32,000 nt of DNA, taken from assembly GCF_000012805.1 (NCBI RefSeq), contig NC_007484.1, positions 2,826,883 to 2,858,882 on the forward strand. The letters are read 5' to 3'. Each line of letters opens with the position of its first letter. Within the stretch, counting starts at the first letter, position 1. Position numbers and translations under genes: made by a program. Under the pieces are notes generated by a model that searched no databases, had not been told where the DNA came from, and saw only the letters and a program-made list of their open reading frames with translations. This stretch comes from Nitrosococcus oceani ATCC 19707. GTDB taxonomy: Bacteria; Pseudomonadota; Gammaproteobacteria; Nitrosococcales; Nitrosococcaceae. Positions 16,786 through 27,036 of this stretch are shown piece after piece.

Positions 16786-17223
16786 CTAATCCAGTATTCC
16801 GGCACGGTAAAGGCGCCAAGTATAGGCACAAGTACCAAGCAATATTACCAACACCAGGAGCAATCCTTCTCCACCTATTCCCGCTGAAAAAACCGCAGCC
16901 AAGGAACCCTTTTTAAAGGCTATTAATAAAAGCCTCCCGAGATCAGCTACTATAGCAGCAAGAAAGAAATAAAGGGCTAACCGACGATGCAAATAAAGAG
17001 CTAATGCTGCAATAAAAATTGTGGCGTTAATTAATAAAGTTAATCCTACCTCTGGCCATGCTAAAGTATCAATCAGCAGTTGTTGTTCAAGAGAAAGCCT
17101 TTTAGCTCCTGTAATCGTGAAAAGATAGCCTATTAGGGCGATACCAGAGGCAATAGCAAGGAAAATAGACAGAAAAATCGTTATCGGGTGGCGCTGCTCT
17201 AGACGAGCTTGAGTTTCATTCAT
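16786..17223 (-). CDS. Hypothetical integral membrane protein (about 4 TM helices)
   Basis: Contains four hydrophobic segments (ITIFLSIFLAIASGIALIGYLF, VGLTLLINATIFIAALALYL, LALYFFLAAIVADLGRLLLIAF, GLLLVLVILLGTCAYTW) and no recognisable family motif. The ORF track start is TTG 17244 with no SD. ATG 17223 has GAGG about 9 nt upstream, so I prefer it. Confidence 0.5.
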   Translation of the reverse strand: MNETQARLEQRHPITIFLSIFLAIASGIALIGYLFTITGAKRLSLEQQLLIDTLAWPEVGLTLLINATIFIAALALYLHRRLALYFFLAAIVADLGRLLLIAFKKGSLAAVFSAGIGGEGLLLVLVILLGTCAYTWRLYRAGILD

Positions 17224-17269
17224 TAAAAAATACCTCGAAGCCAAAAATTAAATGTTTGGCTTAGGATAA

Positions 17270-17310: not shown

Positions 17311-17820
17311 TCATTTCTCTTTAGTATAGACGATCGTTTCAGGTACACCAATTACGTCATCGAAATCACCATCTAGATTATAATCTTCCATTAAAGTAAG
17401 TTTATCACCCTCAATGGAATAGTAGATGGCATAGTCATTGGTTGCAGACTTCATATTAACCGGACTCCAAGCTTGGGTTCCTTTATTATATTCTGCTGTA
17501 CCATAAGATTTAGCCGTCCACTCCATGTAGTCAGATGATACAGAAACGCTTCCAGTTTCTCTCGCAGTCTCCGACCAATTATGGATTATAGAGCCATCTT
17601 CAGCGATAAGTTTTTTAAACCAAGAGTATTTATAAGTATTGCCAGAGAAGGTAACTTCTGCTTTGCTTTTCAAGGTTTCGCCATTTTCCTGCTTGGGTTC
17701 AAACTCCGTCACCCAGGTTCCCGTAAGTCCAAAATCTTCCACGCTTGGACCACCTGATTGGCAAGCTACCAACCCTAAAGCAAGGACAGCTGCACACAAC
17801 ATCAAGAGAAACTGTTTCAT
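17311..17820 (-). CDS. Hypothetical lipoprotein, lipocalin-like beta-rich domain
   Basis: 169 aa with a signal peptide and lipobox LGLVAC (MKQFLLMLCAAVLALGLVAC-QSGG). A GTW motif sits early in the mature part, and the composition is rich in Tyr, Trp, Ser and Thr. AAGGAG lies 5 nt upstream of the ATG. Confidence 0.7.
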   Translation of the reverse strand: MKQFLLMLCAAVLALGLVACQSGGPSVEDFGLTGTWVTEFEPKQENGETLKSKAEVTFSGNTYKYSWFKKLIAEDGSIIHNWSETARETGSVSVSSDYMEWTAKSYGTAEYNKGTQAWSPVNMKSATNDYAIYYSIEGDKLTLMEDYNLDGDFDDVIGVPETIVYTKEK

Positions 17821-18107: not shown

Positions 18108-18671
18108 CTAGGATGCCTTGGCCTCTTTTCCGCCACGGCGACTATACCAAAAAATAAGCCCCAGAATAAGAGCACCGCCAGCGATCGAGGCGATCCACTG
18201 AACGGTCTGCTCTCCCTGGAGACCCACTCGAAGAGGTGCTTTGAAGACCATCGGTTGATCACCACCAAGAATAACTACCGCAGTGTATTCTCCTGCTTTG
18301 GTAAAATCGGTATCAAGCTCAATAGTTCCCTTTGGATATTTTTGAACCGGACGCTCTACTATGGGATTATAATTTGACGGGCCAGCGGCCGTTTTCTGCT
18401 CTTCAACGATCCGAACCTCAACCGGCCGATCACGCAATATCCTATCCACTAAATCAAACACTAAAATGGTGCTTCCCGTCATCGGCAAGTCCCAGCACAG
18501 CTCTTCACCACCAGAAGTTTCCGGTTGGTAAGCAGAAAAATGCATTCGGTAATTACCGATATTGACAACGCACTGATCTGTTTCAATTCCTCCTCCCCCA
18601 TGGGCCATGGCGGAAGTATTTAGCAACAATAATCCAAACGATACAAGGCAGCTAAGTAGTACTTTTTTCAT
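18108..18671 (-). CDS. amoD: AmoD/PmoD-family periplasmic copper protein with C-terminal membrane anchor
   Basis: 187 aa located directly after amoB. It has a signal peptide (..LLLNTSAMA-HGGGG), a Cys/Met/His cluster CVVNIGNYRMH, a beta-rich domain, and a C-terminal TM helix WIASIAGGALILGLIFWY plus a basic tail. Position and architecture match the amoD/orf5 (pmoD) family of ammonia and methane oxidizers. Confidence 0.8.
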   Translation of the reverse strand: MKKVLLSCLVSFGLLLLNTSAMAHGGGGIETDQCVVNIGNYRMHFSAYQPETSGGEELCWDLPMTGSTILVFDLVDRILRDRPVEVRIVEEQKTAAGPSNYNPIVERPVQKYPKGTIELDTDFTKAGEYTAVVILGGDQPMVFKAPLRVGLQGEQTVQWIASIAGGALILGLIFWYSRRGGKEAKAS

Positions 18672-18893: not shown

Positions 18894-20144
18894 CTAGACA
18901 AACGTGGGAACTAATGGACCGCCGATAGGTATCGGAATCTCATTCCCCTCTGGATCAACGAAGAAGATCAAGCCCGCAAAGCGGCTGTCTGGATCATAAA
19001 TGACGTCGGCCATACGCTGAACTTCCCAGGCGGCATCGGTGGCGGAGATGTCAACAACTACGGTTTCACCTGGAGCGATATCCTGTTGACTCACTTCCAA
19101 CCCTTCCGGTGCCAACAACTCCTCAGGATAATCCGTCTCATCAACCCGCACATTTGCATTCATGAATCGAATGCCCCCAGTATTGAACTCGCCAATAGAA
19201 ATCACCTGGTCAGTATGGTTAGTGATTTCAACCGTCATGCTGATAGTCCGCCCCGGCACCCGATAGTTAGCCTTAAGCACGTTAGCGCTTACCATCGAAT
19301 TATAATCCACCGGCAAGGAGTCAATAGTGCCCAGCAGCCCAGCCTGCAACGGAATGGTGACTGGGAATTTATCCTCAGCACTCTTGAAGCCGAACAAAAT
19401 AATGAGCAGGACGCCCACAAGAACGCCTATAGTCAATTTTTTGTCCTGGGCAGTTACTAGATCATTAGCCTCGCCCGCCTCTATTCTCATGTAGCGGGGC
19501 AAGAACATGGGACGGCGGGCCCACCACCAAATCCAGGCGATACCAAGAACGTACCAGAACAGATGCCAACCAATAACCGTGCCCGTGGCCATGGTTTCCA
19601 GGTTGACCGTATTACCGGTCAGATCCGTGATTTTGCTCTCAAAATCAGCCATATCTCCGGTAATGGTGATGTATTTACCTGGACCGATGAGCGGCCCCCC
19701 TCCTTGGACATTTAGCAAGGTATGAACATGCCACGTCCCAGGACGGCGCCCTTGCATCGTCATCTCAAACTCGTAATCGCCGCCCAATTCAAGACCTATC
19801 GAACGAGGGACGAACATACCATTGACGTAGGAAGTAAGCCGAGCCGTGACTGGACCAGGTTGACCCGCATTTAAAAAGGATACATGGGGTTTTTCGACTG
19901 CTTCCGGCCAATCCTCAAAAACCCGGAACTTCCCGCTTATGGTATAGGTCTCATTAACCGCAATGGTATCCTTGGACCATACCATGTCATACCAATGGAT
20001 TGTCCGCATGCGCAGGAAAGCTGCCTGCGCCTTCTCGCCATGGGCAGCTACTGTCGGAATATAGAAAACGCTTGAGGCTATCACCGCAGTAAACCCAATG
20101 GCTAGCCACTTTCTGGCTCGATTTGTTATATGGGTACCTTTCAT
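18894..20144 (-). CDS. amoB: Ammonia monooxygenase subunit B
   Basis: 416 aa. The mature N-terminus HGEKAQAAFLRMRTIHWYD and the HxH motif TWHVHTLL correspond to the PmoB/AmoB copper ligands. Two central TM helices separate the two cupredoxin-like domains. Confidence 0.95.
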   Translation of the reverse strand: MKGTHITNRARKWLAIGFTAVIASSVFYIPTVAAHGEKAQAAFLRMRTIHWYDMVWSKDTIAVNETYTISGKFRVFEDWPEAVEKPHVSFLNAGQPGPVTARLTSYVNGMFVPRSIGLELGGDYEFEMTMQGRRPGTWHVHTLLNVQGGGPLIGPGKYITITGDMADFESKITDLTGNTVNLETMATGTVIGWHLFWYVLGIAWIWWWARRPMFLPRYMRIEAGEANDLVTAQDKKLTIGVLVGVLLIILFGFKSAEDKFPVTIPLQAGLLGTIDSLPVDYNSMVSANVLKANYRVPGRTISMTVEITNHTDQVISIGEFNTGGIRFMNANVRVDETDYPEELLAPEGLEVSQQDIAPGETVVVDISATDAAWEVQRMADVIYDPDSRFAGLIFFVDPEGNEIPIPIGGPLVPTFV

Positions 20145-20209
20145 GTTCTCCGTCTCTCTTTTTGTATTTTAGAATTTTAGAATTATTATCCTCATTATCA
20201 CAAACGATT

Positions 20210-20953
20210 CTACACTTGGTCGATATGGTAGTCCTTGGAGAACCAGCGGCCAACAAAGTGCCACACAAAGTACATTACCATGGCAACAAAACCCGAGAAG
20301 AAAGCTGAAACCGGGACCACGTCCTTACCAAACGTTCTCAAGGTACCTTTCTCAATCATCCGGATATACTCAGGAGTACCGGTCCGGACGTATTGGTAGC
20401 CCATAATATCGGCCAAAGACATTACTACTCCATTGTACTCAGCAGGCACATGGAATGCCGAAAGCAGCGGCCAGTTAGCGGGATACATCAACAAACCGTA
20501 CATTAATCCACCCACTACCGCCGTCAAGCCGTAGCTCTTGGAAATCGCAAGCATGGCATCCAAGAACAGCGCCATGGGCAGCAGAATGGTCGGCCATACG
20601 AAATTAATCGGAAAATAGGTAAACCCTACGAAATTAAAGTAGCGGTTAGCCCACTCACCTGCTAACACCCCTAGCGTTACAAGGGTAGCACCAAAGGGAA
20701 GGCGGAACTTCTCCCAAAAAAACGCCTGTGCAGCAGCGGGGTAAGCAACCGATACAATGGGAACTACGGTGACCCAAAAACGCCGGTCTTTCCAGTCAAC
20801 CCAGAAATCCCAGTCGCCCATTAAAAGCATGACGTGAACGTGGTGGGAAGCCAGCAAAATCATAAAAAAAGCCCCTAACGCTATAAAATCCAACGTTCTA
20901 GAGACTTTAGCAGCTTCCTCCGGTGTACGAACCGCAGACGTAAGTGCACTCAT
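20210..20953 (-). CDS. amoA: Ammonia monooxygenase subunit A
   Basis: 247 aa polytopic membrane protein with full-length AmoA/PmoA character (GDWDFWVDWKDRRFWVTV, YPINFV, TPEYIRMIE). AGGAGGG lies upstream of the ATG. Confidence 0.97.
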   Translation of the reverse strand: MSALTSAVRTPEEAAKVSRTLDFIALGAFFMILLASHHVHVMLLMGDWDFWVDWKDRRFWVTVVPIVSVAYPAAAQAFFWEKFRLPFGATLVTLGVLAGEWANRYFNFVGFTYFPINFVWPTILLPMALFLDAMLAISKSYGLTAVVGGLMYGLLMYPANWPLLSAFHVPAEYNGVVMSLADIMGYQYVRTGTPEYIRMIEKGTLRTFGKDVVPVSAFFSGFVAMVMYFVWHFVGRWFSKDYHIDQV

Positions 20954-21163
20954 TAAACCTGCCCTCCTAAAAATATTAAGGGTTCTATTTAAACTAATTT
21001 ATGATTATTCATTCATCGGATCCAGAAATCCATGAATTCTAAAGGTATGCTTCCTGCCACCTATTTTAACAGCTACTTTCTCATTAGGTTGCTTACTTCC
21101 ATTTCTTTCAACCCGATATAGATAAGCGTATCCCTAATAAAATTTCTGTACAGCACTTTATAC

Positions 21164-21211
21164 AAAAAGGCGGCCACGATCTCATTAACTATTCCGGAGA
21201 TTGCGACCGCC
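21164..21211 (-). terminator. Hairpin plus T-run about 50 nt downstream of amoC (intrinsic terminator/attenuator)
   Basis: In mRNA sense the sequence is GGCGGTCGCAATCTC-(13 nt)-GAGATCGTGGCCGCC. That gives 12 Watson-Crick pairs plus 1 G:U out of 15, with a GGCGG/CCGCC clamp. TTTTTGT follows immediately. Confidence 0.55.
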
Positions 21212-21262
21212 CTTCTATTCAACCCTTCGCTAACTGAAAATCAAATATGATAATCTTAAATA

Positions 21263-22048
21263 TCAGCTACGGGCATAGTCCTCGCTCTGCTGCAGCTCTC
21301 TGCCGATCAATTCCTTCATACGGGGCTGAACCTGCAGAAACACCCCGAATACTGCAAGGATAAACCAAGCAAAGAATACAAAACCCCAGTGCAGAGGTGC
21401 CACAAACAGCTCCTCCATAAACCAGAAGGTGTGACCCCATTCATTCAGACCCACATTCGGGAAGATCATAAAGGGTCCAAACACCAACATGAGGTAGGGT
21501 ACAGACCAGCCCTTTGCAAAATAAGGAATACGGGTCTTAGCATACGTGAACGAACCTAAACCTACCATTACGTAGATCGGGTAGCTCATGTAGAACTCAA
21601 TAATATGGCTTGGGGTGAAGTCTGTATCCCGAACTACGGTCTGATGCCAAGCACCATCCTGCTCGGTAAAGAAGCTCGCGCCCCAGAATAACCCAACGCC
21701 ATAAACAACCCACCACATATAAAGGGTGCAGTAACGGCGCAGCTCCTCGCGGGGAGTCATGGCTTCCATATTGCGATCCCGGGTCTTAATTAGGTAAGAA
21801 ACCAGGGCTGCTGTTGCCAGTGCCTCAACAACGAGCTCAATGTACAGCAGATTCATCCAGTATGTTTGGAATTCCGGCGAAAAGGCATCTAAACCATACT
21901 TCCATCCATAAACACCTTCATACCAACGCACACAGATGTAGAACGCGAAAAAGGCCGCGACCGCTAACCACATGCCACGCCAGGCAAAGAGATCAGCAGT
22001 TTCTTTCTCGGCTACTCCTTGCGCTACAGCTCTACTAGTTGCAGCCAT
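21263..22048 (-). CDS. amoC: Ammonia monooxygenase subunit C
   Basis: 261 aa polytopic membrane protein with full-length AmoC/PmoC character (NEWGHTFWFMEELFVAPLHWGF carries the conserved metal-site residues). AGGAGG lies upstream of the ATG. Confidence 0.97.
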   Translation of the reverse strand: MAATSRAVAQGVAEKETADLFAWRGMWLAVAAFFAFYICVRWYEGVYGWKYGLDAFSPEFQTYWMNLLYIELVVEALATAALVSYLIKTRDRNMEAMTPREELRRYCTLYMWWVVYGVGLFWGASFFTEQDGAWHQTVVRDTDFTPSHIIEFYMSYPIYVMVGLGSFTYAKTRIPYFAKGWSVPYLMLVFGPFMIFPNVGLNEWGHTFWFMEELFVAPLHWGFVFFAWFILAVFGVFLQVQPRMKELIGRELQQSEDYARS

Positions 22049-23499: not shown

Positions 23500-23540
23500 C
23501 TTACCTGTATTTGCGTGCCCCGTCTGCAAATACAGGTAAG
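23500..23540. terminator. Hairpin between convergent serB and the cupredoxin gene (possible bidirectional terminator)
   Basis: Perfect 15-bp stem CTTACCTGTATTTGC-(11 nt)-GCAAATACAGGTAAG, followed by TATTTCTTCG on the plus strand. Confidence 0.5.
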
Positions 23541-23635: not shown

Positions 23636-24655
23636 TTACAAGCGCCACCGTTTGCGCTGTTTGGTTTCTGGCCCAAAATTCTGTACTTGCTCCGATGATT
23701 CTCTACGCTTTTTGCTAAGTCGCCCCAAACCGATCATCGCCAGAGCCAAACCTATTGCCCCTGCGCCTAAAGAAGAACCTATGACGCTCCAGCTCGCTTC
23801 CATTTGATAGGAATCCGGATAGTTTGGGGCTGTTAATCCTGGAATGCTAGGAAAGTCCTGATCCCCACTCCCTACTTTCAATTGGGCTTTCATCCCTTTT
23901 TCTGTATGCTGAGCGATATCGCAATGGACAAAATAAGTTTTCTCAACGCTCGGCACAATAAAAGTTCCCGTCCGGCGACCGGGGCCAGCTAATTCGAGGT
24001 GAAACATTCCCTGAGGATAAAGATACCCCGGCAACATGTGAACCATCCACTGGTGGCGAATATCGTCTTCATTGATAAAGGTGACCGTGATTCGAGTACA
24101 GGGCTTGACCTTCCATTCATGCTGATCATAACCAAATACCGTTCCCGGAAAATCCTTAGCATACTTAGTTCCTGCTCGCACCGTAATTTCCACATCACCT
24201 GCAAGTTTGGGGCAGTCGCGAGGCAGGTTATCCGTATTCTCATTCATGACCATACCATGAGCATCCATGTCCATCATGTGGTGTTCGTGTTCAAATTCAT
24301 GATGAATATGGCCTTCTTCTTCCTGCGGAGGGGCAGTTACCTTAACATCTGCCGTCCTTGGGCCATGTTCATGGTGATGGTGGTGCATTGGCTCCTCTTC
24401 AGTTGCCGCTGATTCTTCCTCGGTCGAAACATCTGCTGCTGGAACCTGGGCAGAAGCTTTTTCTTCCGGCGCGGGTTCCAGCCGCCCCTTCTCCTGGGAT
24501 TCCACGTCCCTAGGATGCTCGTGATGATGATGCTCCGGCGCGGCAGCCTCCGATGGCAATTTATCCTGCTTTGGGCCGTCAGCCGATTCCACAGCGGCGG
24601 CACCTAACGAAAGCATAAGCGCCGCACTAAATATGAATAATTGATAACCCATCAT
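23636..24655 (-). CDS. Membrane-anchored periplasmic cupredoxin (type-1 copper-like site) with a long His/Met/acidic N-terminal region
   Basis: 339 aa with a signal peptide and His tracts EHHHHEH, MHHHHHEH, HIHHEFEHEHHMMDMDAHGMVM. The cupredoxin domain carries candidate ligands H201 or H206 and HCDIAQHTEKGM (C245, H250, M255). The C-terminal TM helix is WSVIGSSLGAGAIGLALAMIGLG, followed by a basic tail. Confidence 0.75.
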   Translation of the reverse strand: MMGYQLFIFSAALMLSLGAAAVESADGPKQDKLPSEAAAPEHHHHEHPRDVESQEKGRLEPAPEEKASAQVPAADVSTEEESAATEEEPMHHHHHEHGPRTADVKVTAPPQEEEGHIHHEFEHEHHMMDMDAHGMVMNENTDNLPRDCPKLAGDVEITVRAGTKYAKDFPGTVFGYDQHEWKVKPCTRITVTFINEDDIRHQWMVHMLPGYLYPQGMFHLELAGPGRRTGTFIVPSVEKTYFVHCDIAQHTEKGMKAQLKVGSGDQDFPSIPGLTAPNYPDSYQMEASWSVIGSSLGAGAIGLALAMIGLGRLSKKRRESSEQVQNFGPETKQRKRWRL

Positions 24656-24662
24656 GTTCTAT

Positions 24663-26354
24663 TTATACCTCCTTGGAGCGCCGCTTCAAGATCATGATTG
24701 AGCGAATCCCAATGACGATACCCCCGAGCAATAATCCCACGCCAAAAGCAAGCAAAGCAGGCTGAATGCGAAGTTGATCTGGTACTTTACTAATCTCGCC
24801 AAACAGATTTTCTTGATCAAAACTTGCCCATACCGGCACTTCCTTTTGATAAAATTCCTTACTAAAATAAGGTTTTAAATCAACCCCCCTACCGAGCGGC
24901 ATACCCTCTTCGCCGAGAAATGACTCATAAACAATGCTGGTCACGTCTCCGCCAGGATTCATCCCATCAGTGGTAACGGCCCGCTCCGTATGATCATGCA
25001 ACAACCAGATCCCTTCCCCATAGCTGTGGAAACCATCAATACTGGTATTCAGAGCAAGATCAATGCGCTGGGCGGGTCCTAGCTCATAAACATCCCGCGT
25101 GATCCATGCCTCTGGGTTATGGGGGGCCCCATCATAAGCGGTAATGGTCATTTTATGGCCATGGCTGTGAATGTAGGCAGGATCTTGGCCCGCGTTCCCC
25201 ATCCGAATCTTTACCAACTCATTGGGTTTCACCACTACCAGCGATTCCCGCAGGGTATAGGGAAAAGAACGGCCATTAAGCAGAAAATAATTAGTTGGAT
25301 TCTCAGTGATATTATAATCACGGTTAATCGCCTTGGAGATCAACCGCGCATCATTAGCGATCTTAATCTTATCCGCCAAGGTCTTGTCAACGCTCTGATA
25401 AAGAAGATCATACTCCCGATCATAGGTCTCTTTCACCGCTACTGAGGGATGACGTACATGCCCTCCCCCTACATTCAGGGTCTGGACCCAATTACTGGGA
25501 CGATTTTCTTCCACCACCATCAACCCTACCAACCCCATTCCAATATGGGCATGGGGCTGAACATGGCAATGGTAAAGCATGGTCCCCGCATGCCGGGGAG
25601 TCATCTCATAAGTACGGCTCTCTCCCGGCATTAAGGGCAGCTCGCTGGTCTGGGGAACCCCATCGTTCCCTTCACCCGCCGCATTCACGAAGGGGTGATC
25701 GACCCCATGAAAATGGATCGTATGGGGAAGATAATGGGTATTCTCGAGAGTAATTTTTATGGTATCTCCCTGCTCAACGCGGATAACGGGAGAAGGCGCT
25801 CGCAGATAAGCATTAGCTTGCAAACTCTCGAAGTTAAGGGTGGACATACCGCGGGTCTTGGGGGCAAAAACCCAGAACCCAGGCTGGACACCCGGTGCAA
25901 TCGAATAGGCAGGAATAGGCTCCGGAGTATCCGGCGAGAATCCGTTTAGCTCGGCCACTTCTAACCGAAGATGGATGACATCCGGATCCCCATCCCCATC
26001 GCGGTCCTCACCTTTGGTGACCGCATCCATCGCAAGCTGGGTCTCCATAATGGTGTCATGGGAAACATTGTTCGTGCCTTTGACGAATGCAGCAATATCT
26101 GCTGGGTTATCCGGGCTGCAAAAAGGTGATGCTTCCACGAGCATCCCCTCAATCACCTGACGCTCTCGCCAAACTGGATCCACATCGGGGCACATCGGCT
26201 CGATCTCCAACTCAGCAAGGTTGAAACTCTCAGTTGCTGGGGGCCGTTGGTAGGGAGCCGACCGCACTATGGAAGGGAACAAGAGAACAAAGCTCCCTAA
26301 CCCTATCACAACGGCAAAGAAGGCATGACGTATATTCATCATTTGCATACACAT
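24663..26354 (-). CDS. Two-domain multicopper oxidase (type-C-like motif order) with C-terminal membrane anchor
   Basis: 563 aa. Copper motifs are HFH (aa 214-216), HCHVQPHAHIGM (aa 262-273), HSH (aa 396-398) and HDH (aa 453-455). The N-terminal signal lacks an RR motif. The C-terminal TM helix is LLAFGVGLLLGGIVIGIRSIMIL followed by KRRSKEV. Confidence 0.85.
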   Translation of the reverse strand: MCMQMMNIRHAFFAVVIGLGSFVLLFPSIVRSAPYQRPPATESFNLAELEIEPMCPDVDPVWRERQVIEGMLVEASPFCSPDNPADIAAFVKGTNNVSHDTIMETQLAMDAVTKGEDRDGDGDPDVIHLRLEVAELNGFSPDTPEPIPAYSIAPGVQPGFWVFAPKTRGMSTLNFESLQANAYLRAPSPVIRVEQGDTIKITLENTHYLPHTIHFHGVDHPFVNAAGEGNDGVPQTSELPLMPGESRTYEMTPRHAGTMLYHCHVQPHAHIGMGLVGLMVVEENRPSNWVQTLNVGGGHVRHPSVAVKETYDREYDLLYQSVDKTLADKIKIANDARLISKAINRDYNITENPTNYFLLNGRSFPYTLRESLVVVKPNELVKIRMGNAGQDPAYIHSHGHKMTITAYDGAPHNPEAWITRDVYELGPAQRIDLALNTSIDGFHSYGEGIWLLHDHTERAVTTDGMNPGGDVTSIVYESFLGEEGMPLGRGVDLKPYFSKEFYQKEVPVWASFDQENLFGEISKVPDQLRIQPALLAFGVGLLLGGIVIGIRSIMILKRRSKEV

Positions 26355-26824: not shown

Positions 26825-26938
26825 CTAATCCTTCATAAGCCAGCGGACAAAGTAGTAAATGCCGGCGATTATTCCTATAGTCACGACAAATCCAATGGGG
26901 GTGAACATTTTATCGACTAATTCAAGGATTGCTCCCAT
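26825..26938 (-). CDS. Unlisted 37-aa single-TM small protein
   Basis: Below the ORF-track size cutoff. My translation is MGAILELVDKMFTPIGFVVTIGIIAGIYYFVRWLMKD*. A strong SD AAGGAG lies 8 nt upstream of the ATG, there is one clear hydrophobic helix, and a sigma70-like promoter sits about 70 nt upstream. Confidence 0.45.
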   Translation of the reverse strand: MGAILELVDKMFTPIGFVVTIGIIAGIYYFVRWLMKD

Positions 26939-27007: not shown

Positions 27008-27036
27008 AGTATAGTAACGATCATACTTCCTGACAA
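27008..27036 (-). promoter_or_regulatory. Sigma70-like promoter TTGTCA-N17-TATACT directed at the smORF (and possibly beyond)
   Basis: In minus-strand sense the -35 TTGTCA is at 27036-27031, the spacer is 17 nt and the -10 TATACT is at 27013-27008. Each hexamer matches consensus at 5 of 6 positions. The promoter lies just after the spoVR stop. Confidence 0.4.

What the first reader, a model, noticed from the sequence alone, without database searches (positions are those of the whole stretch)
23636..26354. Tail-anchored two-domain multicopper oxidase plus His-rich cupredoxin gene pair next to the amo cluster
Seen in sequence: two minus-strand genes separated by 7 nt encode predicted periplasmic copper proteins. 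Each has an N-terminal signal sequence, a single C-terminal TM helix and a short basic tail. AmoD in the neighbouring operon has the same topology. Only the oppositely oriented serB (about 0.8 kb) separates the pair from amoR/amoC. No copCD, sco or pCuAC-like gene is present in the window. Established knowledge: in betaproteobacterial ammonia oxidizers amoCAB is followed by amoE/D-copCD, and a two-domain MCO heads the nirK cluster. Hydroxylamine oxidoreductase has been reported to release NO, which leaves the NO-to-nitrite step enzymatically unassigned, and copper proteins have been discussed as candidates. Inference: this pair could be (a) a membrane-tethered oxidase plus electron-carrier module acting on NO, NH2OH or another N-oxide at the AMO membrane. 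Alternatively it could be (b) a Cu(I) oxidase plus copper-buffering module of the CueO/CopA plus CopI type that supplies or protects AMO. The sequence cannot decide between these.
Basis: partly seen in the sequence, partly recalled or inferred. Interest (0 to 1): 0.75.

Follow-up and report, generated by a model that had tools for sequence, protein, structure and literature searches.

The report
Copper-handling oxidase pair beside AMO genes
Two co-transcribed, membrane-tethered copper proteins next to the ammonia monooxygenase genes of Nitrosococcus oceani belong to a conserved gene pair that recurs beside copper monooxygenase and copper-trafficking genes in many bacteria, so they most likely manage copper for the enzyme and do not oxidise nitrogen compounds.

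Summary
Window 24663-26354(-) encodes a 563-aa multicopper oxidase (MCO). Seven nucleotides downstream, 23636-24655(-) encodes a 339-aa His-rich type-1 cupredoxin. Both have an N-terminal hydrophobic segment and a C-terminal TM anchor. The window is Nitrosococcus oceani ATCC 19707.

The pair is not specific to nitrifiers. Of 57 MCO+cupredoxin modules with enough upstream sequence, 26 have a PmoD/AmoD homologue or a CuMMO (pmo/amo-like) gene directly upstream on the same strand. These come from Binatia, a Methylomirabilota-labelled MAG, Alpha- and Gammaproteobacteria MAGs and Methylococcales. Elsewhere the pair lies beside CopCD-YtkA, CusF, YcnI or Sco1.

The cupredoxin always carries a His/Met-rich motif. 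Different lineages add poly-His, a CusF domain or HvfA-type KCG repeats. It also occurs fused to CopC-CopD and fused to the MCO.

Best reading (about 0.55): a two-subunit, CopI/CueO-like cuprous oxidase and copper-buffering module recruited to CuMMO operons. The NO/NH2OH-oxidase option (a) is disfavoured. The PmoD-MCO proximity was already noted by Fisher et al. 2018. The partner family, the fusions and the breadth of the CuMMO linkage were not found in the literature searched.

The parts
24663..26354 (-). MCO gene (563 aa from the first ATG; public annotations start at 26348 or 26342). It encodes a membrane-tethered type-C-like two-domain multicopper oxidase with an extra N-terminal domain.
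   Evidence: ORF. Pfam Cu-oxidase_3/_2/Cu-oxidase. 100% identity to the N. oceani ATCC 19707 protein. Nearest solved structures are 2zwn and 3g5w.
26256..26336 (-). N-terminal hydrophobic segment of the MCO (residues 7-33). It is either a signal sequence or an uncleaved signal anchor.
   Evidence: Kyte-Doolittle maximum of 2.43. AF2 predicts a helix at residues 2-29. No clear cleavage motif was seen.
25815..26255 (-). Conserved N-terminal extra domain of the MCO (residues 34-180), with invariant C55, C79 and the D117-x-D-G-D-G-D-P-D125 motif.
   Evidence: Invariant columns. pLDDT is 75-94 for residues 60-135. No Pfam match.
25491..25808 (-). Cupredoxin domain 1 of the MCO (residues 183-288). 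It carries the T1 site and half of the trinuclear-cluster ligands (H211, H214, H216, H262, C263, H264, H270, M273).
   Evidence: Pfam stretch 186-284. Motifs. Invariance.
24927..25307 (-). Cupredoxin domain 2 of the MCO (residues 350-476), with H396-x-H398 and H453-x-H455.
   Evidence: Pfam Cu-oxidase stretch 350-437. Motifs and invariance. Aligned to domain 2 of 2zwn and 3g5w.
24684..24773 (-). C-terminal TM anchor of the MCO (residues 528-557), followed by the basic tail KRRSKEV.
   Evidence: Hydropathy. The TM is conserved in all 20 homologues. AF2 predicts a helix at 526-562.
24668..24674 (-). AAGGAGG ribosome-binding site for the partner gene, inside the 3' end of the MCO gene. It suggests an operon with translational coupling.
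   Evidence: Sequence read. In related loci the two ORFs are contiguous or overlap by 4 nt.
23636..24655 (-). Partner gene (339 aa). It encodes a membrane-tethered type-1 cupredoxin with a His/Met-rich N-terminal region.
   Evidence: ORF. Homologues. Invariant ligands. Cupredoxin fold, with weak matches to auracyanins.
24311..24580 (-). Lineage-specific His/Glu-rich low-complexity extension of the partner (residues 26-115; HHHHEH and HHHHHEH runs).
   Evidence: Composition. Present only in Nitrosococcus, Nitrosoglobus and close relatives; most homologues are about 225 aa.
24236..24310 (-). Family-wide His/Met motif of the partner (residues 116-140: HIHHEFEHEHHMMDMDAHGMVMNEN). M128, D131, G134, V136, M137 and N140 are invariant.
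   Evidence: Alignment. The 24 residues ending at the GMVM motif have a median of 38% His+Met, against a background of 5.6%.
23870..24235 (-). Cupredoxin core of the partner (residues 141-262), with the C148/C186 pair, H201, H206, H244, C245, H250 and M255.
   Evidence: Invariant columns. hhalign places H201 on MCO H211 and H206 on MCO H216. Homologues pass the Pfam Cu-oxidase_2 threshold.
23726..23788 (-). C-terminal TM anchor of the partner (residues 290-310), followed by a basic tail.
   Evidence: Hydropathy. AF2 predicts a helix at 289-321. Conserved in the alignment.
18108..18671 (-). amoD (PmoD/AmoD family, Cx8MHxnC class). It is the family whose members lie directly upstream of the MCO in many other genomes.
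   Evidence: ORF and topology. Noc_2500 is listed in the Fisher 2018 supplement. PmoD homologues lie upstream of the MCO.
18894..22048 (-). amoCAB (amoC 21263-22048, amoA 20210-20953, amoB 18894-20144). This is the CuMMO with which the pair is linked.
   Evidence: ORFs. The same layout with AmoC/AMO/Monooxygenase_B Pfam labels occurs in N. halophilus and Nitrosoglobus.
26825..26938 (-). Conserved 37-aa TM mini-ORF upstream of the MCO gene. It may be part of the same transcription unit.
   Evidence: Sequence. Called as a gene in N. halophilus. The ORF, its RBS and the upstream promoter-like site 27008-27036 are nearly identical between the two species.

Best explanation
The two genes encode the subunits of a membrane-tethered periplasmic copper oxidase module that handles copper ions for the neighbouring copper membrane monooxygenase (AMO).

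Proposed mechanism:
1. The small subunit captures Cu(I) on its flexible His/Met-rich N-terminal region. This region is extended by poly-His runs in Nitrosococcus.
2. The small subunit passes the electron through its type-1 copper site. This may involve a bound-copper site formed by the conserved H206 and H244 next to C245.
3. The electron moves on to the type-1 site and then the trinuclear cluster of the two-domain MCO, which reduces O2 to water.

The outcome is Cu(II) held on, or handed to, periplasmic copper carriers (AmoD/PmoD here; CopC/CopD, YcnI, CusF or Sco1 elsewhere). This supplies the CuMMO with copper and keeps toxic Cu(I) low in a cell that moves a lot of copper.

Shown: the gene anatomy, the ligand sets, the family-wide synteny and the fusions. 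Inferred: Cu(I) as the substrate, the electron route, and the hand-over to AmoD or AMO.
For: 1. Anatomy. The MCO has a complete T1 site plus an 8-His trinuclear-cluster ligand set, invariant in 20 homologues. It has a type-C two-domain MCO fold. The partner has an invariant T1 set and an invariant His/Met motif.

2. Operon. The gap is 7 nt with an internal RBS. The partner lies directly downstream of the MCO in 22 of 31 genome loci and in most metagenome loci.

3. Linkage to CuMMO regardless of substrate. Nitrosococcus and Nitrosoglobus share the amo-adjacent layout. Of 57 modules with at least 900 bp of upstream sequence, 26 have PmoD or a CuMMO gene directly upstream. PmoD, CuMMO genes and (in 6 loci) a PQQ dehydrogenase are the recurrent neighbours with a metabolic meaning; the other recurrent families are an unannotated lipoprotein, two membrane proteins and lineage-conserved housekeeping genes.

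4. Copper-binding modules on the partner. The region before the GMVM motif is 38% His+Met. A CusF_Ec domain is present in L039 and L003. HvfA-type KCGExKCG repeats are present in L064, L071 and L093, above the NCBIfam cut-off.

5. Fusions. CopC-CopD-partner and MCO-partner single chains both exist.

6. Contexts without CuMMO. These are canonical copper-trafficking clusters: YcnI with a CopCD-partner fusion, the MCO and Sco1; CopCD-YtkA, CusF, or COX2-COX1-Sco1.

7. Literature. A PmoD subclass lies near MCO genes, and the M. capsulatus pmoD(MCA2130)/MCO pair is copper-activated (PMC6189053 supplement and PMC6688271). [quoted passage not shown]
Against: - No biochemical or expression data exist for this family or for the N. 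oceani genes; a literature search for the presumed locus tags Noc_2505/Noc_2506 (inferred from Noc_2500 = amoD, not verified) found nothing.
- The MCO itself has no Met-rich region of the CueO/CopA kind. It scores far below the NCBIfam CueO and CopA cut-offs (38-44 bits against 478-525).
- I could not verify that the copper-activated M. capsulatus MCO belongs to this family.
- About half of the modules have no PmoD or CuMMO gene directly adjacent. Whole-genome co-occurrence with CuMMO could not be tested.
- The sampling was not random.
- A type-1 cupredoxin next to PmoD, which can form a CuA site, is equally compatible with pure electron transfer.
- The structure models are of moderate (MCO, pLDDT 65.6) and low (partner, 55.9) confidence.
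Confidence: 0.55

Rival explanations
1. Electron-relay or terminal-oxidase module. In this reading the tethered type-1 cupredoxin, together with the CuA-forming PmoD/AmoD, shuttles electrons between periplasmic dehydrogenases (HAO or cytochromes in nitrifiers, PQQ alcohol dehydrogenases in methane and alkane oxidisers) and either the CuMMO or the MCO. The MCO would act as a periplasmic O2-reducing safety valve. Copper ions would not be the substrate.
For: - The partner has an intact T1 site and weakly resembles auracyanins, which are membrane-tethered electron carriers.
- PmoD can form a CuA site and has been suggested to transfer electrons (PMC6189053; PMC8262859).
- PQQ dehydrogenase genes flank the module in 6 loci.
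- In Nitrosomonas sp. HPC101 the pair is followed by COX2-COX1-Sco1.
Against: - An MCO with a complete trinuclear cluster would send electrons to O2 and waste reductant.
- The partner's accessory regions (CusF, HvfA-type Cys repeats, poly-His/Met) and its fusion to CopC-CopD are hallmarks of metal-ion handling, not of electron carriers.
- Nitrosococcus has no PQQ dehydrogenase at this locus.
Confidence: 0.15
2. General copper-tolerance system with no specific relation to AMO. In this reading the pair is simply a variant cop/cue-type periplasmic detoxification oxidase, and its position beside amoCAB in Nitrosococcus is inherited synteny without functional meaning.
For: - The pair occurs in CopCD, CusF, YcnI and Sco1 clusters and in a haloarchaeal contig with no CuMMO gene in the locus.
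- About half of the modules have no adjacent PmoD or CuMMO gene.
- The amo-adjacent MCO is decayed in a Nitrosoglobus MAG.
Against: - A PmoD or CuMMO gene lies directly upstream in 26 of 57 modules, across several phyla and at least three CuMMO types. That is far more than chance for families this rare.
- At least 26 of the 31 genome loci come from taxa known to carry CuMMO or have CuMMO genes in the locus itself.
- Most of the 'unlinked' loci share Methylococcales-type synteny.
Confidence: 0.15
3. N-oxide oxidase. In this reading the MCO plus cupredoxin oxidises NO, NH2OH or HNO released by HAO or AMO at the membrane, for example as the missing NO-to-nitrite enzyme.
For: - The pair sits next to amoCAB in three gamma-AOB genera or species.
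- An archaeal two-domain MCO with a fused cupredoxin domain (Nmar_1354, PDB 9cck) consumes NH2OH (PMC13058606) and is a fold neighbour.
- The partner's H-x4-H ... H-C pattern is the pattern of the NirK T1 and T2 ligands.
- The Nitrosomonas sp. HPC101 pair lies beside a COX2-COX1-Sco1 cluster that resembles sNOR. That resemblance rests on my own recollection, not on a test.
Against: - The same module, at 55-65% identity, follows methane- and alkane-type CuMMOs and sits in plain copper-trafficking clusters.
- Among AOB, the named hits were Nitrosococcus, Nitrosoglobus and one Nitrosomonas species only.
- The amo-adjacent MCO is a pseudogene in an obligate ammonia oxidiser.
- The NirK model scores 40.7 bits against a cut-off of 296.
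- The partner profile does not match the cupredoxin domain of 9cck.
Confidence: 0.07
4. Laccase or manganese oxidase, as some automatic annotations say ('manganese oxidase', 'FtsP/CotA-like').
For: JGI labels on several homologues. The nearest solved structure, mgLAC (2zwn), has laccase activity according to its deposition title.
Against: - The MnxG model scores 13 bits against a cut-off of 3100, and the laccase model scores 35 bits against 559.
- No neighbouring gene points to phenolic or Mn metabolism.
- The labels are similarity-based and untested.
Confidence: 0.03

Closest known systems
Type-C two-domain multicopper oxidases: metagenomic mgLAC (PDB 2zwn) and Nitrosomonas europaea blue copper oxidase (PDB 3g5w)
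   Same: Both have two cupredoxin domains, with the T1 site and HCH in the first domain and two HxH motifs in the second. They are the best sequence-profile hits (E about 1e-38) and the best Foldseek hits (TM about 0.7 on the target).
   Different: Identity is only 24-25%. The present family adds a conserved N-terminal domain of about 150 aa and a C-terminal TM anchor. It is encoded with a dedicated cupredoxin subunit and lies beside CuMMO, PmoD or copper-trafficking genes, not in a nirK cluster.
CopI of Rubrivivax gelatinosus (periplasmic copper-tolerance cupredoxin)
   Same: Both are single cupredoxin domains with a His-Cys-His-Met site, a conserved His/Met-rich segment and a variable N-terminal His-rich segment. 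CopI is proposed to bind Cu(I) and oxidise it at the cupredoxin centre (PMC13308877). The partner protein has the same three-part logic.
   Different: No sequence relationship was tested, because no CopI model or sequence was available. The partner is membrane-anchored and is always paired with, or fused to, an MCO, PmoD or CopCD. Its His/Met motif is N-terminal to the fold, whereas CopI's conserved His/Met region is internal.
CueO and CopA/PcoA three-domain cuprous oxidases
   Same: They are O2-reducing MCOs used for periplasmic copper homeostasis, with Met/His-rich Cu(I)-binding segments close to a T1 site. The repeats in the Nitrosoglobus partner (HEHHMMDMDAGMDMNGHQ...) resemble the MDH/MxxM repeats of CopA/PcoA; that comparison rests on my own knowledge.
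   Different: The present system has two domains plus a separate subunit instead of three domains. Here the Met/His region sits on the partner and not on the oxidase. NCBIfam CueO and CopA scores are far below their cut-offs. No twin-arginine signal is evident.
PmoD/AmoD-MCO gene neighbourhoods noted by Fisher et al. 2018 (e.g. M. capsulatus MCA2130 next to an MCO)
   Same: A PmoD homologue lies directly upstream of an MCO with Pfam Cu-oxidase_2/_3. That pair is copper-activated. The same PmoD-MCO order is seen in more than 20 loci here.
   Different: That work recorded the proximity by Pfam label only. It did not describe the MCO family, the downstream cupredoxin, the fusions or the placement after CuMMO operons outside methanotrophs. 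N. oceani's pair fell outside its window of 5 genes on each side. Whether MCA2129 belongs to this family was not verified.
copCD downstream of amoCAB-amoED in betaproteobacterial ammonia oxidisers
   Same: These are copper-trafficking genes appended, together with PmoD-family genes, to a CuMMO operon. The partner domain is found fused to CopC-CopD, which links the two arrangements.
   Different: The proteins and their chemistry differ: CopC is a Cu(II) chaperone and CopD a membrane transporter, whereas this module is an oxidase. Nitrosococcus has no copCD in the window.
Nmar_1354 of Nitrosopumilus maritimus (PDB 9cck), a two-domain MCO/NirK-like protein with a C-terminal cupredoxin domain
   Same: It combines a two-domain MCO core with an extra cupredoxin, in an ammonia oxidiser. 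It is a fold neighbour, and MCO-partner fusions exist in this family too.
   Different: Identity is 15-19% (18-19% for the MCO, 15% for the partner model). The partner profile does not detect its cupredoxin domain. Its reported NH2OH activity has no counterpart evidence here.

Membership tests
Multicopper oxidase superfamily | Cupredoxin domains carrying a T1 site (His, Cys, His, axial Met) and a trinuclear cluster bound by eight His in four HxH-type motifs | tested here: met
   Pfam Cu-oxidase_3, _2 and Cu-oxidase score above their cut-offs. H211/H214/H216, H262-C263-H264, H396/H398 and H453/H455 are all invariant.
Two-domain MCO, type C (mgLAC / N. europaea BCO kind) | Exactly two cupredoxin domains, with the T1 site and the HCH motif in the N-terminal one | tested here: met
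   Motif positions. The best PDB sequence and fold matches, 2zwn and 3g5w, cover both domains. There is also an extra non-cupredoxin N-terminal domain and a TM anchor.
Two-domain MCO, type C (mgLAC / N. europaea BCO kind) | Homotrimer with trinuclear clusters at the subunit interfaces | not testable with these tools
   Only single-chain AF2 models were available.
CueO / CopA(PcoA) cuprous oxidases | Three-domain MCO that reaches the curated NCBIfam score, with a Met-rich segment on the oxidase | tested here: not met
   CueO NF008205 scores 38.4 bits against a cut-off of 525. CopA TIGR01480 scores 44.5 bits against 479. The protein has two cupredoxin domains only, and the Met/His region is on the partner.
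Copper nitrite reductase NirK | T1 plus a mononuclear T2 site (three His), and the curated TIGR02376 score | tested here: not met
   TIGR02376 scores 40.7 bits against a cut-off of 296. The MCO has the full 8-His trinuclear-cluster set. The partner has a NirK-like H-x4-H/H-C pattern but is a single domain.
Mn-oxidising MCOs (MnxG etc.) and laccases | Curated family score | tested here: not met
   MnxG scores 13.4 bits against a cut-off of 3100. Laccase scores 34.8 bits against 559.
Type-1 (blue) copper cupredoxins - partner protein | Cupredoxin fold with His, Cys, His, Met ligands in the C-terminal loop | tested here: met
   H201, C245, H250 and M255 are invariant or nearly so. Homologues pass the Pfam Cu-oxidase_2 threshold. 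There are weak profile and fold matches to auracyanins. Copper binding itself was not tested.
CopI-type copper-tolerance cupredoxins - partner protein | Sequence homology to CopI | not tested
   No CopI model or full sequence was available. The resemblance is architectural only.
CopI-type copper-tolerance cupredoxins - partner protein | Conserved His/Met-rich segment plus a variable N-terminal His-rich segment | tested here: met
   The HxHHxMxMDxxGMVMNEN motif is invariant and the extensions are variable.
CuMMO-associated accessory module (PmoD/AmoD neighbourhood) | Recurrent same-strand adjacency to PmoD homologues or CuMMO subunit genes | tested here: met
   26 of 57 modules overall, and 18 of 38 with at least 5 kb of upstream sequence. 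In the window itself the pair is separated from amoC by serB.
CuMMO-associated accessory module (PmoD/AmoD neighbourhood) | Restriction of the family to genomes that encode a CuMMO | tested here: not met
   Members occur in a haloarchaeal contig and in CopCD, YcnI and Sco1 clusters with no CuMMO gene in the locus. Whole genomes could not be scanned, so absence of CuMMO elsewhere in those genomes is unproven.

The most novel reading that the evidence does not exclude
PmoD/AmoD, the tethered cupredoxin and the tethered two-domain MCO together form a dedicated copper redox and insertion machine. It would dock on copper membrane monooxygenases and load, re-oxidise or repair their active-site copper. 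If so, it is one of the 'missing components' that explain why isolated or heterologously expressed AMO and pMMO are poorly active. The CopCD of beta-AOB amo operons would be its functional counterpart.
Probability: 0.22. Interest if true: 0.85.

Novelty: new variant of a known kind. Interest (0 to 1): 0.6.

Why it matters
How AMO and pMMO acquire and keep their copper is unresolved, as is the question of which accessory proteins they need. This limits both the biochemistry and the heterologous expression of these enzymes, which matter for the climate.

This analysis turns an unannotated 'hypothetical protein' and a generic 'multicopper oxidase' into a defined two-gene module. The module travels with PmoD and CuMMO operons across phyla and is tied by gene fusion to CopCD, CusF and HvfA-type copper binders. 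That gives concrete candidates for co-expression with AMO or pMMO, and for knock-outs in methanotrophs.

It also removes one candidate from the list of possible NO-oxidising enzymes in ammonia oxidisers. This is useful for the open NO-to-nitrite question.

Tried and rejected
1. M. capsulatus membership. I tried to confirm that the copper-activated M. capsulatus MCO next to MCA2130 belongs to this family by searching with a Methylococcaceae member. The top 120 hits held only Methylomarinum, Methyloprofundus and Methylococcales MAGs, so the question is unresolved.

2. Literature. A search for the presumed locus tags Noc_2505/Noc_2506 (inferred, not verified) and for MCA2128/MCA2129 found nothing relevant. 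The N. oceani comparative-genome paper and the Binatota paper do not mention the pair.

3. Partner against solved structures. The partner profile gave only marginal auracyanin hits. hhalign of partner against MCO gave 1.6% probability and was useful only for ligand register. The AF2 model of the partner was of low confidence, so its Foldseek hits carry little weight.

4. Promoters and terminators. The scan found no more sites than in shuffled sequence. Only the promoter-like site upstream of the 37-aa ORF gains support, from conservation.

5. 'Manganese oxidase', laccase, NirK, CueO and CopA labels. All were rejected on curated scores.

6. The idea that the partner supplies missing trinuclear-cluster ligands to the MCO. 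This was rejected because the MCO already has all eight His.

7. Strict restriction of the family to CuMMO organisms. This was rejected after finding the haloarchaeal MCO-partner fusion and CopCD/YcnI/Sco1 contexts with no CuMMO gene in the locus.

Full report
**What is in the window.** The window is Nitrosococcus oceani ATCC 19707, because the larger protein is 100% identical to that strain's annotated 'Multicopper oxidase, type 3'. The two minus-strand ORFs lie at 24663-26354 (563 aa) and 23636-24655 (339 aa). They are separated by 7 nt. An AAGGAGG site for the second gene lies inside the end of the first. Downstream, after the oppositely oriented serB, lie amoC, amoA, amoB and amoD. Upstream lie SpoVR, DUF444/YeaH and PrkA. 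Pfam scans of every large ORF in the window found no CopC, CopD, Sco or PCuAC. Hydropathy analysis confirms an N-terminal hydrophobic segment, one C-terminal TM helix and a basic tail in both proteins and in AmoD.

**The large protein.** It passes the Pfam thresholds for all three MCO models. It carries H211-x2-H214-x-H216 and H262-C263-H264 in one cupredoxin domain. It carries H396-x-H398 and H453-x-H455 in the next. All of these residues are invariant in an alignment of 20 homologues whose mean column identity is 62%. The best matches are the type-C two-domain MCOs mgLAC (2zwn) and the N. europaea blue copper oxidase (3g5w). This holds both for a profile search of PDB sequences (E about 1e-38) and for a Foldseek search with the AF2 model (mean pLDDT 65.6; TM about 0.7 on the target; 24-25% identity). 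Curated NCBIfam models for CueO, CopA, NirK, laccase and MnxG all score far below their cut-offs. Two features set the family apart from the solved two-domain MCOs. One is a conserved N-terminal domain of about 150 residues, with two invariant Cys and a DxDGDGDPD motif. The other is a conserved C-terminal TM anchor.

**The small protein.** It has no Pfam hit. Only 188 representatives exist among 1.84 billion 50%-identity cluster representatives, so the family is narrow and tightly conserved.
- The alignment shows an invariant Cys pair (C148, C186). It shows a T1 set (H201, C245, H250, M255; the Met is Leu in a few members).
- Two further invariant His are present, H206 and H244. In the only hhalign-aligned stretch, H201 falls on the MCO's T1 His and H206 on one trinuclear-cluster His. 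The pattern H-x4-H ... H-C is the one NirK uses for its T1 and T2 ligands; that comparison is my own knowledge. I infer that H206 and H244 could hold an additional copper next to the Cys-His electron path.
- Immediately N-terminal to the fold lies an invariant motif, HxHHxMxMDxxGMVMNEN.
- Several homologues pass the Pfam Cu-oxidase_2 threshold. Profile and fold matches to auracyanins are weak, and the AF2 model is of low confidence.

**The pair is conserved and widespread.** The partner lies directly downstream of the MCO in 22 of them. Of the other nine, three are cut by the contig end and six have no partner despite downstream sequence. A metagenome scan with the partner alignment found 543 true relatives among 600 candidate stretches, and the best 80 were kept. 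The Nitrosococcus His/Glu-rich extension is lineage-specific, because most partners are about 225 aa.

**Synteny.** N. halophilus has the same layout as the window. A Nitrosoglobus MAG does too, but there the MCO has decayed to fragments while the partner is intact. Three distant homologues were picked only for sitting on long contigs. All three lie directly after AmoC-AMO-(small ORF)-Monooxygenase_B and a PmoD-like ORF, on the same strand. The same arrangement appears in a Binatia genome, an Alphaproteobacteria MAG, a Gammaproteobacteria MAG and several metagenome contigs.
- Across 118 loci, 57 MCO+partner modules have at least 900 bp of upstream sequence. In 26 of them a PmoD homologue or a CuMMO subunit gene lies immediately upstream on the same strand. 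The figure is 18 of 38 when at least 5 kb is available.
- ORF clustering showed that PmoD, the CuMMO subunits and a PQQ dehydrogenase (6 loci) are the recurrent neighbours with a metabolic meaning. The other recurrent families are an unannotated lipoprotein directly upstream of the MCO (11 loci), two membrane proteins downstream of the partner, and lineage-conserved housekeeping genes.
- Other architectures exist. PmoD-MCO-partner is common in Methylococcales-like contigs.
- PmoD-partner without the MCO also occurs. Partnerless MCO paralogues are seen too, and in a tree they sit next to the PmoD-MCO-partner clade. I read this as relocation and not loss.
- The associated CuMMOs are of at least three kinds. 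They are the Nitrosococcus AMO, CAB-type enzymes 43-49% identical to it, and divergent CAxB-type enzymes about 33% identical. The Binatota study assigns CAxB enzymes to TUSC and butane-monooxygenase-like clades.
- The association is therefore with copper monooxygenases in general, not with ammonia oxidation.

**Evidence for copper handling.**
- The 24 residues ending at the GMVM motif contain a median of 38% His+Met, against 5.6% in all ORFs of the loci.
- Lineage-specific N-terminal additions are all copper-binding types. Nitrosococcus and Nitrosoglobus have poly-His and MDM repeats. Two partners that follow CAB-PmoD-MCO have a CusF_Ec domain. Three marine partners have HvfA-type KCGExKCG repeats that score above the NCBIfam cut-off.
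- The representative search uncovered fusions. Some are CopC-CopD-(FixH/YtkA-like)-partner proteins. Others are single chains of the MCO followed by the partner.
- One CopCD-partner fusion lies between a DUF1775/YcnI gene and a bona fide family MCO, with Sco1 nearby.
- Other loci without CuMMO genes show CopC-CopD-YtkA or a CusF protein directly upstream. In Nitrosomonas sp. HPC101, COX2-COX1-Sco1 lies downstream.
- An MCO-partner fusion also sits in a haloarchaeal contig.

**Comparison with what is known.** Fisher et al. [quoted passage not shown] They also noted that the pmoD/MCO pair of M. capsulatus (MCA2130) is copper-activated. N. oceani's pair fell outside their five-gene window. I could not verify that the M. 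capsulatus MCO belongs to this family.

CopI of R. gelatinosus has the same logic as the partner: a T1-type site, a conserved His/Met segment and a variable N-terminal His-rich segment. It is proposed to bind Cu(I) and oxidise it. None of the papers I could search describes the partner family, the fusions, or the module's placement after CuMMO operons outside methanotrophs.

**Interpretation.** The best-supported reading is a two-subunit, membrane-tethered copper oxidase and buffer. It belongs to periplasmic copper-trafficking systems and has been recruited repeatedly, together with PmoD/AmoD, to CuMMO operons. Proposed mechanism, all inferred:
1. Cu(I) binds the His/Met region of the partner.
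2. The electron passes through the partner's T1 site, perhaps via a copper bound at H206 and H244.
3. The electron moves on to the MCO's T1 site and then to its trinuclear cluster, and from there to O2.
4. Cu(II) remains available to AmoD/PmoD, CopC or the monooxygenase.

I give this about 0.55.

**Rivals and caveats.**
- A pure electron-relay role is possible (0.15), but it is hard to reconcile with CusF, HvfA-type repeats and CopCD fusions.
- A generic copper-tolerance role unrelated to AMO (0.15) conflicts with the adjacency statistics.
- The NO/NH2OH-oxidase idea (0.07) conflicts with the module's presence beside methane- and alkane-type CuMMOs and in plain copper clusters. It also conflicts with the patchy occurrence of the pair among ammonia oxidisers and with the pseudogene in Nitrosoglobus.
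- The laccase or Mn-oxidase labels (0.03) rest on similarity only.
Whole-genome co-occurrence was not testable. No experimental data exist for this family.

**Verdict.** This is a new variant of a known kind, namely MCO-based periplasmic copper handling. It is of moderate-to-high interest because it nominates concrete accessory factors for AMO and pMMO copper supply.

Noticed in passing
window 26825-26938 (-), promoter-like site 27008-27036 (-): A 37-aa single-TM mini-ORF (MGAILELVDKMFTPIGFVVTIGIIAGIYYFVRWLMKD) lies between SpoVR and the MCO gene. The ORF, its RBS and an upstream TTGTCA-17-TATACT site are almost identical in N. halophilus, where it is a called gene. It may head the MCO operon.
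   Followed up: partly
window 23500-23540: A perfect 15-nt inverted repeat (CTTACCTGTATTTGC / GCAAATACAGGTAAG, 11-nt loop) lies about 95 nt after the partner's stop codon, with no T-run. It could be a terminator or a protein-binding site.
   Followed up: no
L036 9051-9897 (Nitrosoglobus MAG): The amo-adjacent MCO gene is reduced to three fragments of 43-56% identity, with residues about 115-293 missing. The partner gene next to it is intact and carries expanded HEHHMMDMDAGMDMNGHQ repeats.
   Followed up: partly
L033 10001-11698 (N. wardiae); L034 10001-11668 (Nitrosoglobus): A partnerless paralogue of the MCO (65% identity) sits among H4MPT/formylmethanofuran C1-transfer genes (FTR, 4HFCP_synth, GXGXG) near the replication origin genes.
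   Followed up: no
P0372, P0392, P0393 (proteins); L120 10001-12301: The partner cupredoxin domain occurs as the C-terminal domain of CopC-CopD fusion proteins. In L120 this fusion is flanked by DUF1775/YcnI, a family MCO and Sco1.
   Followed up: yes
P0400, P0420, P0423 (proteins); L121 10001-12139: Single-chain MCO-partner fusions exist. One lies in a contig with haloarchaeal HalOD1 genes, so the family extends to archaea without an obvious CuMMO.
   Followed up: partly
L064 9740-10471, L071 6693-7472, L093 1057-1905: Some marine partners carry EGKCGEGKCG repeats that match the NCBIfam HvfA 'KCGExKCG_twice' domain of oxazolone/thioamide RiPP metallophores. Whether these Cys repeats are post-translationally modified in this context is unknown.
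   Followed up: partly
L011 6176-15827 (Nitrosomonas sp. HPC101): The pair is followed by COX2-like, COX1-like and SCO1/SenC genes. From memory, this arrangement recalls the sNOR norYS-senC cluster. A second, unrelated MCO lies upstream on the other strand.
   Followed up: no
window 17311-17820 (-) and 16786-17244 (-): Two unannotated genes follow amoD: a 169-aa lipoprotein and a 152-aa multi-TM protein. They have no Pfam match. Genes of similar size and without Pfam hits occupy the same position after amoD in the N. halophilus and Nitrosoglobus loci; their sequences were not compared.
   Followed up: no
L029 9420-9959 and 10 other loci (family F8): In one Methylococcales clade a 179-aa lipoprotein of unknown family, not PmoD, lies directly upstream of the MCO.
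   Followed up: no
L001, L037, L038, L040, L045, L048, L049, L083: The divergent CuMMO operons that precede the module have the order PmoD-C-A-x-B, with a conserved small ORF of 110-126 aa between A and B. Several are flanked by a PQQ dehydrogenase.
   Followed up: partly
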